Shown here: piece by piece, positions 12,363 to 15,926 of the stretch
How the letters are laid out: each line of letters begins with the position of its first letter
Position numbering within the stretch: position 1 is the first letter of the stretch
DNA from: Escherichia coli
GTDB taxonomy: Bacteria > Pseudomonadota > Gammaproteobacteria > Enterobacterales > Enterobacteriaceae
NCBI RefSeq assembly: GCF_048403405.1
Contig: NZ_CP183129.1
DNA length: 64,000 nucleotides
Reading direction: 5' to 3' (one strand)
The notes under the pieces: model-generated
What the model was told of the DNA's origin: nothing
The model's database searches: none
The model's input: the letters and a program-made list of their open reading frames with translations, nothing else
Translations under genes and position numbers: made by a program

Positions 12363-12379
12363 TTTTGTGGAGAAAGTTG

Positions 12380-12760
12380 ATGCGTGATATTCAGATGGTT
12401 CTTGAACGCTGGGGGGCATGGGCGGCAAGTGGTAACACCGGGGTGGACTATTCTCCGATCGCTGCCGGATTCAAAGGACTTTTACCATCTGCCACTAAAC
12501 CACGTCCGGCCTGCTGCGATGATGACGGACTTATCATTGAAAACTGTCTTGCTCGTCTGAAGCAGAAAAAACCTGAGGAGTATTCGCTTCTCATTGCTCA
12601 TTATCTGTTGCGAATATCAAAAAGACAGATAGCCAGGACGAGAAAGAAAAGCGAAAAAGCAATACGAATTGAGATGCAGATAGCCGAAGGGTTTATTGAC
12701 GGATGTTTGTCTGTGCTGGGGGTAAGACTGGAGATGGACGACTGGCTGCTAAAAAAGTAA
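12380..12760 (+). CDS. Late antiterminator Q (phage 82/21 type, QuuD-like)
   Basis: 126 aa from ATG 12380 (MRDIQMVLERWGAWAA...), GGAG RBS. Confidence 0.8.
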   Translation: MRDIQMVLERWGAWAASGNTGVDYSPIAAGFKGLLPSATKPRPACCDDDGLIIENCLARLKQKKPEEYSLLIAHYLLRISKRQIARTRKKSEKAIRIEMQIAEGFIDGCLSVLGVRLEMDDWLLKK

Positions 12761-12829
12761 AAAATGATTAGTGCGGTCCGCAAAAAGTATGTCAGTATGT
12801 TAAGAGTGGTTACTTCGCCACACAGCTTA

Positions 12830-12852
12830 AACCCGCCGCGAGCGGGTTTTTT
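12830..12852 (+). terminator. tR'-like intrinsic terminator downstream of Q
   Basis: Stem aacccgc/gcgggtt, loop cgcga, tttttt; about 70 nt after Q stop. Confidence 0.55.
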
Positions 12853-12914
12853 ATGGCTGAACGTTAAATGCGCTGGTGGTTGTGAATGCCGACTGCGGCG
12901 GTATTTTGGCGTGA

Positions 12915-13189
12915 CGGCGCAGGTGCCGTATACCGATGTCTGGACGCATAAACCGGTACAGTTCTATCCCGGGAAACATCCGTGCGAAAAACCGGCAGAA
13001 ATGCTGCAGCAGATAATCAGCGCTAGCAGTCGTCCGGGTGACCTGATTGCAGATTTTTTCATGGGGTCGGGTTCGACAGTGAAAGCGGCACTGGCGCTCG
13101 GGCGTCGTGCAATTGGCGTTGAGCTGGAGACTGAACGTTTTGAGCAGACGGTTCGGGAAGTACAGGATTTAGTCAGCCAGAACGGATGA
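12915..13189 (+). pseudogene. C-terminal remnant of a DNA methyltransferase
   Basis: Only the C-terminal region (KHPCEKP...GDLIADFFMGSGST) is present; the NPPY catalytic part is missing; track ORF spans the tR' hairpin. Confidence 0.45.
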
Positions 13190-13229: not shown

Positions 13230-13305
13230 GGCCCTTTAGCTCAGTGGTGAGAGCGAGCGACTCATAATCGCCAGGTCGCTGGTTCAAATCCAGCAAGGGC
13301 CACCA
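13230..13305 (+). tRNA. tRNA anticodon CAU (Ile2 lysidine/Met type; ileZ-like of lambdoid and Stx phages)
   Basis: Cloverleaf read manually: acceptor ggccctt/aagggcc, anticodon loop cuCAUaa, CCA present. Confidence 0.8.
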
Positions 13306-13312
13306 TCACATA

Positions 13313-13389
13313 CCGCCATTAGCTCATCAGGATAGAGCACCAGCCTTCGAAGCTGGTTGCGCGGGGTTCGAGTCCTCGATGGCGGTCCA
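13313..13389 (+). tRNA. tRNA-Arg anticodon UCG
   Basis: Acceptor ccgccat/atggcgg, anticodon loop cuUCGaa, T-arm ggttcgagtcc. Confidence 0.75.
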
Positions 13390-13402
13390 TTATCTGTACC
13401 CT

Positions 13403-13479
13403 GCGTTGTTAGCTCAACCGGACAGAGCAATTGCCTTCTAAGCAATCGGTCACTGGTTCGAATCCAGTACAACGCGCCA
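13403..13479 (+). tRNA. tRNA-Arg anticodon UCU (argO-like)
   Basis: Acceptor gcgttgt/acaacgc, anticodon loop cuUCUaa, T-arm ggttcgaatcc. Confidence 0.8.
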
Positions 13480-13519: not shown

Positions 13520-13719
13520 AAATGTCTCACAATTCAGACGGTTGACAGTTGTCTGTTTTGCGGGGAGTTTGTTAAAAGAAACTGGCATGGTGAATCCCCC
13601 TGTGCGGATGGGCAATCAGCGAGTAGGTATATGGGATAATCGCGGATTCAGGTGCTGGTACTGAATTCACCGGGAGGCACCCGGCACCATGCAGTTGACT
13701 GAAACCATGTATACTCTCA

Positions 13720-13750
13720 GGCCCCACGCACATGTGTTGGGGCCTTTTTA
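13720..13750 (+). terminator. Second intrinsic terminator in spacer before holin
   Basis: ggcccca...tggggcc stem followed by ttttt. Confidence 0.45.
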
Positions 13751-13920
13751 CATGCAAAAAAAAGCCCGCATATTGATACGGGCGGCAAGGAACAAAAAAC
13801 GTGAAGTGATCTATTCAGCCAGTGGATAATACCCTGACGTTACCATATTGCGCAATCGCGCATTCTTTCTTTTTCGCTCCCCTTATAACTACGCCATCCG
13901 TTCGCTGCGGAGGTGAGGCT

Positions 13921-14136
13921 ATGAAATCCATGGATAAAATTTCAACGGGCATTGCCTACGGCACCTCCGCAGGCAGTGCTGGCTACTGGTTTTTACAGTG
14001 GCTTGATCAGGTCAGTCCGTCACAGTGGGCTGCGATTGGTGTACTGGGGAGTCTGGTTCTGGGCTTCCTGACATATCTGACTAACCTGTATTTCAAAATC
14101 AGAGAGGACCGTCGTAAGGCTGCACGGGGAGAGTAA
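13921..14136 (+). CDS. Class II holin (EssD/S21-like)
   Basis: 71 aa from ATG 13921, GGAGGTGAGG RBS; two TM segments; MKSMDK...AARGE matches DLP12 EssD family. Confidence 0.85.
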
Positions 14137-14140
14137 TTCA

Positions 14141-14485
14141 ATGACTCAAAACTATGAACTGATTGTGAAAGGGATCCGCAATTTTGAGAATAAAGTTACG
14201 GTAACTTTAGCGTTACGGGACAAAAAACGCTTTGACGGTGAAATTTTTGACCTGGACATCTCGCTGGACCGTGTTGAAGGTGCCGCGCTGGAGTTTTATG
14301 AGGAAGCAGCCAGAAGGAGCATCAGACAGGTCTTCCTGGATGTTGCTGCCGGGTTATGTGAAGGGGGTGAGCAGTCGCCGGAAAAGCGCCCCGTAATTTT
14401 AGAGGCGCAGAATGTGTGGATAACCTACAAAGGAAAGCTACCGGGAAGAATTACTGGTTCTCTGAAGACTCCACCGCTGGGCTGA
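14141..14485 (+). CDS. Hypothetical protein between holin and endolysin
   Basis: 114-aa ORF; no recognisable motif. Confidence 0.45.
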   Translation: MTQNYELIVKGIRNFENKVTVTLALRDKKRFDGEIFDLDISLDRVEGAALEFYEEAARRSIRQVFLDVAAGLCEGGEQSPEKRPVILEAQNVWITYKGKLPGRITGSLKTPPLG

Positions 14486-14535
14486 AGACTTAACATATCC
14501 AGGTATTCGGAACCGATAAATCCTGATAAATATCC

Positions 14536-15069
14536 ATGAACGCAAAAATCAGATACGGCCTGTCGGCTGCCGTTCTGGCGCTGATTGCCGCAGGTGCGCC
14601 TGCGCCTGACATTCTCGACCAGTTTCTGGATGAAAAGGAAGGCAACCACACCACGGCATACCGTGATGGTGCAGGTATCTGGACCATCTGCCGTGGTGCC
14701 ATCATGGTGGATGGCAAACCTGTCGTTCCGGGCATGAAGTTGTCGAAGGAAAAATGCGAACAGGTTAACGCCATTGAGCGTGATAAAGCGCTGGCGTGGG
14801 TGGAGAAAAACATCAGAGTGCCGCTGACCGAACCCCAGAAAGCGGGGATCGCGTCATTCTGTCCGTACAACATTGGCCCCGGTAAGTGTTTCCCGTCGAC
14901 GTTTTATAAGCGGCTGAATGCCGGTGATCGTAAGGGGGCATGCGAAGCGATTCGCTGGTGGATTAAGGATGGTGGGCGCGATTGCCGCATACGTTCAAAT
15001 AACTGCTATGGGCAAGTTATTCGTCGTGACCAGGAAAGCGCATTAGCCTGTTGGGGGATAGAGCAGTGA
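14536..15069 (+). CDS. SAR-endolysin (GH24 lysozyme, RrrD-like)
   Basis: 177 aa; N-terminal signal-anchor-release segment; E/D/T catalytic spacing. Confidence 0.85.
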
Positions 15070-15533
15070 GCAGAGTCGCCGCGATTATTTATGCTCTGGT
15101 TATCTGCATCATCGTCTGCCTGTCGTGGGCGGTTAATCATTACCGTGATAACGCCATCACCTACAAAGAACAGCGTGATAAAAAAGTCAGTGAGCTGAAG
15201 CAGCTGACCGCCACCATCGCTGACATGCAGCAGCGTCAGCGTGATGTTGCTGCGCTCGATGCAAAATACTCGAGGGAATTAGCCGATGCGAGAGCTGAAA
15301 ATGAAACTCTTCGCGCTGACGTTGCCGCTGGTCGTAAGCGCCTGCGGATCAACGCCACCTGCCCCGGTACCGTGCGTGAAGCCACCGGCACCTCCGGCGT
15401 GGATAATGCAACCAGCCCCCGACTGGAAGACACCGCTGAACGGGATTATTTCACCCTCAGAGAGCGGCTGATGACGATGCAGATGCAACTGGAAGGGGCA
15501 CAGGAGTATATCCGCACTCAGTGCATTAAGTAG
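15066..15533 (+). CDS. Rz-like inner-membrane spanin
   Basis: GTG at 15066 overlapping lysozyme stop; N-terminal TM then coiled-coil. Confidence 0.7.
15286..15471 (+). CDS. Rz1-like outer-membrane lipoprotein spanin (embedded in Rz, +1 frame)
   Basis: Lipobox LVVSAC, proline-rich [15 protein letters not shown]. Confidence 0.7.
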
Positions 15534-15575: not shown

Positions 15576-15926
15576 ATGCCATCACTAATCCCACGAGCCT
15601 GCCGTAAGCGTGGATGTGCAGGAACAACCACAGACAGTTCTGGTTACTGCGATAAACATCGTGGCGAAGGATGGGTACAGCATCAACGAGGACTGAGTCG
15701 CCACCAGCGTGGCTATGGTTCGAAATGGGATGCCATACGTGCGCGCATACTGAAGCGTGATAATCATCTGTGTCAGAACTGCCTGCGCAATGGGAGAGCC
15801 GTTGAAGCCAGAACTGTGGACCACATCATTCCGAAAGCTCATGGTGGCACGGATGCAGACAGTAACCTGCAGAGTCTGTGCTGGCCCTGTCATAAAGCAA
15901 AAACAGCGCGCGAACGCATCAATTGA
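15576..15926 (+). CDS. HNH endonuclease (terminase-associated)
   Basis: 116 aa; Cys pairs and HxxH; adjacent to terS/terL. Confidence 0.8.
   Translation: MPSLIPRACRKRGCAGTTTDSSGYCDKHRGEGWVQHQRGLSRHQRGYGSKWDAIRARILKRDNHLCQNCLRNGRAVEARTVDHIIPKAHGGTDADSNLQSLCWPCHKAKTARERIN

What the first reader, a model, noticed from the sequence alone, without database searches (positions are those of the whole stretch)
14141..14485. Unassigned 114-aa gene inserted between holin and endolysin
The canonical cassette is holin-endolysin-spanins. Here an extra ORF with no recognisable motif sits between holin and lysozyme with 4-nt spacing to the holin stop. It could be a lysis regulator or a moron; YdfR/DUF1327 in Qin-type prophages occupies a similar position as recalled, but identity is unverified.
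Basis: partly seen in the sequence, partly recalled or inferred. Interest (0 to 1): 0.35.

Follow-up and report, generated by a model that had tools for sequence, protein, structure and literature searches.

The report
YdfR-family gene in prophage lysis cassette
The extra gene between the holin and the endolysin is an ordinary member of the YdfR/DUF1327 family, an optional small cytoplasmic protein that three quarters of E. coli genomes carry at exactly this spot and whose only tested activity is binding the host RNA-cutting enzyme RNase E, not cell lysis.

Summary
The ORF is real: 14141..14485 (+), 114 aa, 4 nt after the holin stop. It has a strong Shine-Dalgarno site, and its N-terminal domain is under purifying selection. 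It is not unassigned. It matches Pfam DUF1327 (E 6e-42). NCBI's annotation pipeline names an identical copy 'YdfR family protein'. K-12 Qin has the same order, essQ-ydfR-rrrQ-rzpQ, with the same 4-nt gap. Similar DNA occurs in 4059 of 5426 complete E. coli genomes.

The protein has a conserved ~75-aa domain (three strands and a helix) and a tail predicted disordered. It has no membrane segment. The gene is optional: phage 933W joins S directly to R. Where ydfR is present it takes the ribosome site that serves R in 933W, and R keeps a leader without one.

More distant relatives sit in tail modules or upstream of other holins. They are usually followed by a small gene on the opposite strand. The window's allele looks like a deletion derivative that lacks that partner.

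The only experiments (K-12 YdfR, 78% identical in this domain) show binding to the catalytic half of RNase E and co-purifying RNA.

Verdict: a known, ordinary gene. It is an accessory late gene, probably not a lysis protein.

The parts
13556..13755 (+). STnc100-family prophage sRNA directly upstream of the lysis genes (context: leader of the late operon)
   Evidence: Rfam RF02076, 133 bits against a gathering score of 47, full-length match. Terminator-like hairpins lie at its 3' end.
13921..14136 (+). Phage-21-type class II holin (71 aa, with Met1 and Met4 as two possible starts); its 3' end contains the ribosome-binding site of ydfR
   Evidence: Pfam PF04971 Phage_holin_2_1, E 8.6e-36. PGAP names the identical locus 'class II holin family protein'.
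14126..14133 (+). Shine-Dalgarno sequence GGGGAGAG serving ydfR, inside the last holin codons
   Evidence: Duplex energy with the 16S rRNA 3' end is -8.5 kcal/mol. The same element serves R in phage 933W, which has no ydfR.
14141..14485 (+). ydfR-family gene (114 aa plus stop): the finding
   Evidence: Pfam DUF1327 E 5.9e-42. PHROG 406 matches full length. Copies 100% identical at the DNA level in E. coli are annotated 'YdfR family protein', WP_016239030.1.
14141..14365 (+). Codons 1-75: the conserved DUF1327 core domain (strands 5-14, 18-27, 34-43; helix 50-73)
   Evidence: AlphaFold2 pLDDT 76-92. 78% identical to K-12 YdfR over 77 aa. dN/dS 0.25-0.3. This is the only part shared with the distant 72-76-aa relatives.
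14366..14482 (+). Codons 76-114: basic tail predicted to be disordered; a separate mosaic module
   Evidence: pLDDT below 50. pI 9.8. Synonymous divergence from BP-4795 is 0.12 here against 0.64 in the N-domain, and selection is inconclusive, dN/dS 0.2-0.9.
14470..14485 (+). Apparent deletion junction: after TCCACCG (to 14476) the sequence continues with the region that lies just upstream of R in longer alleles; the last two codons and the stop come from it
   Evidence: Alignment A4. The 183-aa alleles carry about 520 bp more here (a C-terminal extension, a convergent 69-aa ORF and a hairpin). The extra DNA is flanked by CCACCG / CCCACCA.
14486..14535 (+). 50-nt spacer and leader of the endolysin gene, A/T-rich, with no Shine-Dalgarno match
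   Evidence: Duplex energy +0.3 kcal/mol. The leader GATAAATCCTGATAAATATCC is conserved in the ydfR-bearing cassettes aligned, except K-12 Qin, which keeps only ATAAATATC.
14536..15069 (+). Lysozyme-type endolysin with a Gly/Ala-rich N-terminal segment that looks like a signal-anchor-release (SAR) sequence
   Evidence: Pfam PF00959, E 3.2e-24. 92-93% identical to the R proteins of Qin, BP-4795 and Evi. The SAR reading is my inference from the sequence.
15066..15533 (+). Rz spanin (inner-membrane subunit), GTG start overlapping the R stop
   Evidence: Pfam PF03245, E 1.8e-49. PGAP start in the identical locus. Shine-Dalgarno energy -8.4 kcal/mol.
15286..15471 (+). Rz1 spanin lipoprotein embedded in Rz
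   Evidence: Pfam PF06085, E 1.1e-20.

Best explanation
The ORF is a YdfR/DUF1327-family gene: an optional accessory gene of the late operon of lambdoid prophages, in its usual slot between a phage-21-type holin and the endolysin.

Shown from the sequence:
- It is read from the strong ribosome site embedded in the end of the holin gene.
- It encodes a 12.8-kDa soluble protein. This is made of a conserved acidic ~75-aa domain (three strands and a helix) and a basic tail predicted to be disordered.
- The endolysin gene behind it has a leader without a ribosome-binding match.

Inferred by homology: like K-12 YdfR, whose residues 1-72 carry the interaction surface, the domain binds the catalytic N-terminal half of host RNase E and perhaps RNA.

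Inferred, weakly: it acts on RNA turnover late in induction. It is not part of the holin-endolysin-spanin machinery.

The allele in this window is a reduced form. Compared with fuller alleles, it lacks a helical C-terminal extension and a small gene on the opposite strand.
For: Identity:
- Pfam DUF1327 at 142 bits, and PHROG 406 full length.
- PGAP names an identical locus 'YdfR family protein'.
- K-12 Qin has the same gene order and the same 4-nt gap.

Real protein: dN/dS of the N-domain is 0.25-0.3.

Soluble: the highest 19-residue hydropathy is 0.68.

Domain plus tail: the AlphaFold2 model.

Optional:
- 933W has S, 4 nt, then R, with no ydfR.
- Only 101 phage records hold a YdfR relative.

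Not tied to lysis:
- Five of seven distant relatives have informative contigs, and all five lie in lambda-like tail-tip modules.
- Others lie upstream of unrelated holins.

Function, from PMC13232886:
- K-12 YdfR(1-72) was fished out with RNase G as bait. It binds RNase E 1-597 in two-hybrid tests, and RNase E 1-598 co-purifies with it.
- DNase-resistant nucleic acid also co-purifies.
- Overproduction is not toxic.
- The window protein is 78% identical to K-12 YdfR over this domain.

Reduced allele: alignment A4.
Against: - The RNase E link rests on one study that used overproduced, tagged K-12 protein. Overproduction changed few transcripts and gave no phenotype.
- Nothing was tested for this allele, and its tail differs from that of K-12.
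- The left junction with the holin is invariant: 4 nt in 87 of 88 loci.
- The K-12 ydfR deletion appears among envelope-leaky mutants (PMC3879167 supplement). Together with the fixed junction, this keeps a lysis-related role possible. The deletion may instead act through polar effects on the endolysin gene rrrQ, which is my inference.
Confidence: 0.55

Rival explanations
1. Module reading. YdfR is one half of a mobile two-gene unit: the DUF1327 gene on the late strand plus a variable small gene on the opposite strand. Its job concerns that partner, for example controlling or neutralising it during lytic growth. The solitary allele in this window would then be a relic whose function is reduced or lost.
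For: A convergent ORF abuts the DUF1327 gene in every locus that has room for one.
- Phage Evi has a 98-aa partner.
- The 81-aa, 69-aa and ~127-150-aa types occur in E. coli lysis cassettes.
- All seven distant relatives have one, as do five further viral loci.

The Evi partner is 61-65% identical to partners in tail modules.

The partners are real genes: dN/dS is 0.26 and 0.39. PGAP annotates hypothetical proteins under these regions.

The window allele looks like a deletion that removed the partner.
Against: - The partners fall into at least five unrelated families, which argues against a specific protein-protein relationship.
- Solitary alleles are the commonest form in the loci sampled: 54 of 88 have the 63-nt gap.
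- The N-domain is under purifying selection across the close alleles sampled, most of which are solitary.
- The partner has no family, defence or informative fold match.
Confidence: 0.2
2. Cis-effect reading. The main consequence of the insert is on the endolysin. By occupying the ribosome site at the end of the holin gene, it leaves R with a leader lacking a ribosome-binding match. This lowers or uncouples endolysin synthesis relative to holin and so tunes lysis. The protein product would be secondary.
For: - The GGAGAG element at the end of S serves R in 933W and ydfR here, both at -8.5 kcal/mol.
- R has no Shine-Dalgarno match in the window, K-12 or Evi (0.3 to 1.1 kcal/mol).
- The R leader is conserved in the other ydfR-bearing cassettes aligned.
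Against: - A pure spacer would not keep a protein domain under purifying selection.
- A pure spacer would not recur in tail modules.
- No expression data were available.
- A/T-rich leaders can still initiate well (general knowledge).
Confidence: 0.15
3. Trans-acting lysis regulator. YdfR modulates the pinholin or the membrane-tethered endolysin, for example by delaying triggering or release.
For: - The position next to the holin is fixed in 88 loci.
- The gene is the second of the lysis operon.
- The K-12 deletion is listed among envelope-leaky mutants.
Against: - There is no membrane, signal or SAR segment.
- It matches no lysis-category family.
- The holin has two possible starts, Met1 and Met4. 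In phage 21 this arrangement yields the antiholin form (my knowledge), so a separate antiholin would not be needed.
- 933W has the same cassette type without ydfR, and such cassettes are known to lyse (my knowledge).
- Relatives occur outside lysis cassettes.
- Overproduction causes no growth defect.
Confidence: 0.08
4. A decaying, functionless ORF carried along in a prophage.
For: - The allele looks like a deletion product, and its last codons are accidental.
- Selection on the tail is inconclusive.
Against: - The N-domain is intact, has a strong ribosome site and is under purifying selection.
- 68 complete E. coli records hold copies at least 99% identical.
Confidence: 0.02

Closest known systems
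YdfR of the E. coli K-12 cryptic prophage Qin (b1555, P76160; Pfam DUF1327)
   Same: Same family. 78% identical over residues 1-77. Same position between essQ (holin) and rrrQ (lysozyme), with the same 4-nt gap after the holin stop.
   Different: After residue ~72 the sequences are unrelated. K-12 has a 30-aa helical tail, and its stop overlaps the rrrQ start (gap -4). The window has a 39-aa tail predicted disordered and a 50-nt spacer.
ORF47 of Stx phage BP-4795 and the equivalent gene of Stx1a/Stx2c phages ('YdfR family protein')
   Same: Same length (114 aa), same tail, and same junction with the R leader.
   Different: The N-domain is highly diverged (61% identity overall; synonymous divergence 0.64 against 0.12 in the tail). 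The gene is therefore a mosaic joined near codon 75.
Phage proteins that target RNase E: T4 Srd, phiKZ Dip, T7 gp0.7 (from my own knowledge of the literature)
   Same: These are phage-encoded proteins that act on host RNase E. Srd, like K-12 YdfR, binds the N-terminal half.
Morons of lambdoid phages (for example lambda bor and lom, HK97 gp15; from my own knowledge)
   Same: An extra gene present or absent at a precise junction between conserved late genes (933W against the window). The opposite-strand partner genes of fuller alleles resemble bor, which sits reversed after Rz1 in 933W.
   Different: ydfR has no promoter-like or terminator-like site of its own. It is read on the late strand from the holin's ribosome site.

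Membership tests
YdfR / DUF1327 (Pfam PF07041) | Sequence match above Pfam's gathering score | tested here: met
   142.2 bits against a cut-off of 25, E 5.9e-42, residues 1-112 on profile positions 1-92 of 93.
YdfR / DUF1327 (Pfam PF07041) | Position of the type member: directly after a phage-21-type holin and before the lysozyme gene | tested here: met
   K-12 Qin reads essQ-ydfR-rrrQ-rzpQ/rzoQ. The gap after the holin stop is 4 nt in 87 of 88 lysis-context loci, the window included.
YdfR / DUF1327 (Pfam PF07041) | Conserved ~72-aa N-terminal core domain | tested here: met
   78% identity to K-12 YdfR over 77 aa. The core aligns with 72-76-aa stand-alone relatives. The AlphaFold2 model shows three strands and a helix at pLDDT 76-92.
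YdfR / DUF1327 (Pfam PF07041) | Binding to the catalytic N-terminal half of RNase E (shown for K-12 YdfR residues 1-72) | not testable with these tools
   Known only from PMC13232886.
Holins, antiholins and accessory lysis regulators (phage 21 S antiholin form, T4 RI, P1 LydB, Mu releasin) | A membrane-spanning, signal or SAR segment, or homology to a lysis family | tested here: not met
   The highest 19-residue hydropathy is 0.68. All five PHROG matches are 'unknown function'. NCBIfam and PADLOC gave no hit.
Holins, antiholins and accessory lysis regulators | Constant presence in cassettes of the same type | tested here: not met
   933W has the same holin type joined to R by 4 nt, with no ydfR. 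Only 2 Stx2a phage records hold a YdfR relative, against 124 that match the cassette DNA.
Double-stranded-RNA-binding domain (dsRBD) | Alpha-beta-beta-beta-alpha fold with significant structural similarity | tested here: inconclusive
Moron (independent transcription unit inserted between conserved phage genes) | Presence/absence polymorphism at a precise junction | tested here: met
   Alignment A3: the insert lies exactly between the holin stop and R.
Moron (independent transcription unit inserted between conserved phage genes) | Own promoter and terminator | tested here: not met
   No promoter-like or terminator-like site lies between 13863 and 15700. These are consensus scans only.

The most novel reading that the evidence does not exclude
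DUF1327 genes travel with a variable opposite-strand gene as a mobile two-gene unit. The unit inserts at gene junctions all along the late operons of lambdoid phages: holin/endolysin, Q/holin, and the tail genes M/L, L/K and I/J. The most novel reading not excluded is that YdfR is a phage-encoded RNase E/RNA adaptor. It would deal with the sense-antisense RNA conflict that such convergent genes create inside the long late transcript, for example by silencing the partner's mRNA or protecting the late mRNA during lytic growth. The solitary allele in this window would then be a remnant of that system.
Probability: 0.07. Interest if true: 0.6.

Novelty: already known. Interest (0 to 1): 0.2.

Why it matters
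As it stands, this is routine annotation: a named family member in its usual place.

It matters modestly for three reasons.
- YdfR is one of the commonest prophage genes of E. coli. Similar DNA is found in 75% of complete genomes, yet no physiological role is known.
- It is the second gene of the lysis operon of many Stx phages.
- The single functional lead, RNase E binding, would make it a temperate-phage counterpart of the RNase E modulators known from virulent phages.

Two observations give concrete handles for experiments. The endolysin loses its ribosome site wherever ydfR is present. The gene also usually comes with an opposite-strand partner.

Tried and rejected
- NCBIfam and PADLOC gave no hit.
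- A profile search of PDB sequences gave no hit.
- Foldseek against BFVD gave nothing at E 0.001 or better.
- The afdb50 library was not available.
- I looked for a remnant of an opposite-strand partner gene in the window by tblastn and found none.
- The minus-strand ORFs 14425..14649 and 14490..14873 overlap the endolysin gene and match none of the partner ORFs compared, so I treated them as spurious.
- Selection on the tail (codons 76-112) is inconclusive: dN/dS is 0.2 among close alleles and 0.92 against BP-4795, with few changes in either comparison.
- The partner proteins have no Pfam, PADLOC or PDB-sequence match. Their only family matches are to PHROGs of unknown function.
- A promoter scan for the partner gene in L070 found nothing.
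- A nine-sequence alignment of distant relatives was too diverse for a locus scan. A five-sequence one returned only five loci.
- The main text of Paradis-Bleau 2014 does not mention ydfR. It appears only in the supplementary hit lists.

Full report
**Observation.** The ORF exists as described: 14141..14485 on the + strand, ATG start, 114 aa.
- The upstream ORF, counted from Met at 13921, is a 71-aa phage-21-type holin (Pfam PF04971, E 8.6e-36). It stops at 14134-14136, so exactly 4 nt separate it from the ATG.
- Downstream lie a lysozyme-family endolysin (14536..15069, PF00959), Rz (PF03245) and the embedded Rz1 (PF06085).
- The Rz start is the GTG at 15066. This follows from the annotation of an identical E. 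coli locus and from its ribosome site.
- The ORF is not a chance reading frame. It has a GGGGAGAG ribosome site (-8.5 kcal/mol against the 16S rRNA 3' end), a strong family match, and purifying selection on its N-terminal domain (see Anatomy).

**Identity.**
- The protein matches Pfam DUF1327 at 142 bits against a cut-off of 25 (E 5.9e-42). It matches PHROG 406 over its full 114 residues, a family of unknown function.
- Copies 100% identical at the DNA level occur in several complete E. coli chromosomes, where NCBI's pipeline names the product 'YdfR family protein' (WP_016239030.1). The surrounding genes are annotated holin, lysozyme, lysis protein, HNH endonuclease and terminase.
- In K-12 the cryptic prophage Qin reads essQ-ydfR-rrrQ-rzpQ/rzoQ, with the same 4-nt gap after the holin.
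- Megablast finds similar DNA in 4059 of 5426 complete E. coli genomes.
- The family is nevertheless narrow. There are 308 clusters at E 0.001 or better among 5.8 billion proteins; those named by a source are almost all Escherichia or Shigella. Only 89 representatives turn up among 1.84 billion in an exhaustive profile search.

**Setting in the window.** The cassette is part of a lambdoid prophage. In order the region holds:
- a Q-family antiterminator (12365..12760);
- a truncated DNA methyltransferase;
- three tRNA genes (13230-13479);
- a full-length STnc100 sRNA (13556..13755, 133 bits), ending near terminator-like hairpins;
- then S-ydfR-R-Rz/Rz1, an HNH endonuclease and the terminase genes.

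By the established layout of lambdoid phages, ydfR is thus the second gene of the Q-dependent late transcript. This last step is an inference.

**Anatomy.**
- Alignment of family members shows a shared core of about 72-75 residues followed by unrelated C-termini. Length classes are 103, 104, 114-116, 176-183 and 263 aa.
- The AlphaFold2 model gives three antiparallel strands (5-14, 18-27, 34-43) and a long helix (50-73) at pLDDT 76-92. Residues 76-114 fall below 50, so the tail is predicted to be disordered.
- The protein has no hydrophobic segment: the highest 19-residue hydropathy is 0.68. The core is acidic (pI 4.9) and the tail basic (pI 9.8).
- The core is under purifying selection, with dN/dS of 0.25-0.3 against K-12, BP-4795 and others. 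The tail is inconclusive (0.2 to 0.92, few changes).
- Against BP-4795, synonymous divergence is 0.64 in the core but 0.12 in the tail. The gene is therefore a mosaic joined near codon 75.
- At the 3' end all alleles agree up to TCCACCG (window 14470-14476) and then diverge. The 183-aa alleles carry about 520 bp more: a helical extension, a 69-aa ORF on the opposite strand and a hairpin. They then rejoin the conserved leader of R.
- The extra DNA is flanked by CCACCG and CCCACCA. The window allele thus looks like a deletion between short repeats, and its last two codons and stop are accidental.

**Optional, and with a cis consequence.**
- Phage 933W has the same holin type joined to R by 4 nt, with no ydfR.
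- Only 101 phage records hold a YdfR relative.
- The element GGAGAG at the end of S serves R in 933W and ydfR here. In the window, K-12 and Evi, R has no ribosome-binding match (+0.3 to +1.1 kcal/mol).
- In 88 lysis-context loci the left gap is 4 nt in 87 and 3 nt in one. The right gap takes the values -4, 28, 50, 55, 63, about 320, 343, 448 and 511 nt.

**Family-wide context.**
- Every long right gap holds a small ORF on the opposite strand that abuts or overlaps the ydfR stop. The types are 98 aa in phage Evi, 81 aa, 69 aa and about 127-150 aa.
- These partners are real genes. dN/dS is 0.26 and 0.39, and one copy is broken by a stop. NCBI's pipeline annotates hypothetical proteins under these regions. 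The 81-aa type region is found in at least 1052 complete E. coli genomes and the 69-aa type in 310.
- I looked up the seven most distant relatives, 72-94 aa consisting of the core alone. All are followed by a convergent small ORF.
- Five of the seven have informative contigs, and all five lie inside lambda-like tail-tip modules: between M and L, between L and K, between I and J, or directly upstream of J.
- Five further viral loci show the same pair between Q and an unrelated holin, between hicAB and a holin, and between I and J.
- The Evi partner is 61-65% identical to partners in tail modules. Overall, however, the partners fall into at least five unrelated families.
- The window holds no remnant of a partner.
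- The common denominator is therefore the late operon, not lysis.

**Function.** The only experiments concern K-12 YdfR (PMC13232886).
- A fragment of residues 1-72 was recovered in a two-hybrid screen with RNase G as bait.
- Full-length YdfR interacts with RNase E 1-597, and RNase E 1-598 co-purifies with Strep-YdfR.
- DNase-resistant nucleic acid also co-purifies.
- Overproduction changes few transcripts and does not slow growth.
- ydfR is not expressed in standard culture.
- The window protein is 78% identical over this domain, so transferring the interaction to it is reasonable but untested.
- The K-12 deletion mutant appears in the envelope-leakiness hit lists of PMC3879167. Since ydfR lies directly upstream of the endolysin gene, a polar effect is a plausible cause. 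That is my inference.

**Explanations.**
- Best: an accessory late protein whose conserved domain binds RNase E and perhaps RNA. It is not a component of the lysis machinery. The identity part is near certain. I put the mechanism at roughly 0.4.
- Rival 1: YdfR works with or for the opposite-strand partner, and this allele is a relic (0.2).
- Rival 2: the main effect is in cis, on endolysin translation (0.15; this is compatible with the best explanation).
- Rival 3: a trans-acting lysis regulator (0.08).
- Rival 4: a functionless ORF (0.02).

**Comparison and verdict.**
- The gene is a member of a curated family, in the family's type position, and an identical product is already in RefSeq. Novelty: already known.
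- A specialist would not be surprised, and interest is low (0.2).
- The association of DUF1327 genes with variable convergent genes at many late-operon junctions lies outside the window. It is recorded as a lead rather than a result.

Noticed in passing
L094 2001-2540 (phage Evi); L070 566-809; L049 3553-3760; L095 2793-3242; L083-L092; L099-L103: DUF1327 genes are usually followed by a small gene on the opposite strand. The partners fall into at least five unrelated families, and two types tested give dN/dS of 0.26 and 0.39. The pair occurs at holin/endolysin, Q/holin and hicAB/holin junctions, at the tail-gene junctions M/L, L/K and I/J, and directly upstream of J. One ~100-aa partner family (phrog_25324) is shared between lysis and tail contexts. 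No function could be assigned: the model is a generic four-helix bundle.
   Followed up: partly
window 14486-14535 and 14126-14133; L097 4040-4053: The strong ribosome site at the end of the holin gene serves R in 933W but ydfR wherever ydfR is present. R then has a conserved A/T-rich leader (GATAAATCCTGATAAATATCC) with no ribosome-binding match.
   Followed up: partly
window 13556-13755 (+): A full-length match to the prophage sRNA family STnc100 (Rfam RF02076, 133 bits) lies directly upstream of the holin and ends near terminator-like hairpins. A 2026 preprint relates STnc100 to the PasD sRNAs of Stx-type prophages.
   Followed up: partly
window 13230-13479 (+): There are three tRNA genes between Q and the lysis genes. 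ARAGORN calls the first tRNA-Met (CAT), but NCBI annotates the identical gene as tRNA-Ile. The other two are Arg-TCG and Arg-TCT.
   Followed up: no
window 12764-13189 (+): A DNA methyltransferase ORF whose C-terminal part is annotated as an N-terminally truncated pseudogene in the identical E. coli locus. Phage mEp460 has a full-length 1053-nt methyltransferase gene at this position.
   Followed up: no
window 15576-15926 (+): An HNH endonuclease gene sits directly upstream of the P27-family small terminase subunit and the large terminase subunit.
   Followed up: no
L072 list (P0072, P0094); P0011, P0029, P0037: Some database entries show an internal duplication of the YdfR core (P0072, 196 aa). 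Others show holin-YdfR fusions (PF04971 plus PF07041), most likely from frameshifts or gene-calling across the 4-nt gap.
   Followed up: no
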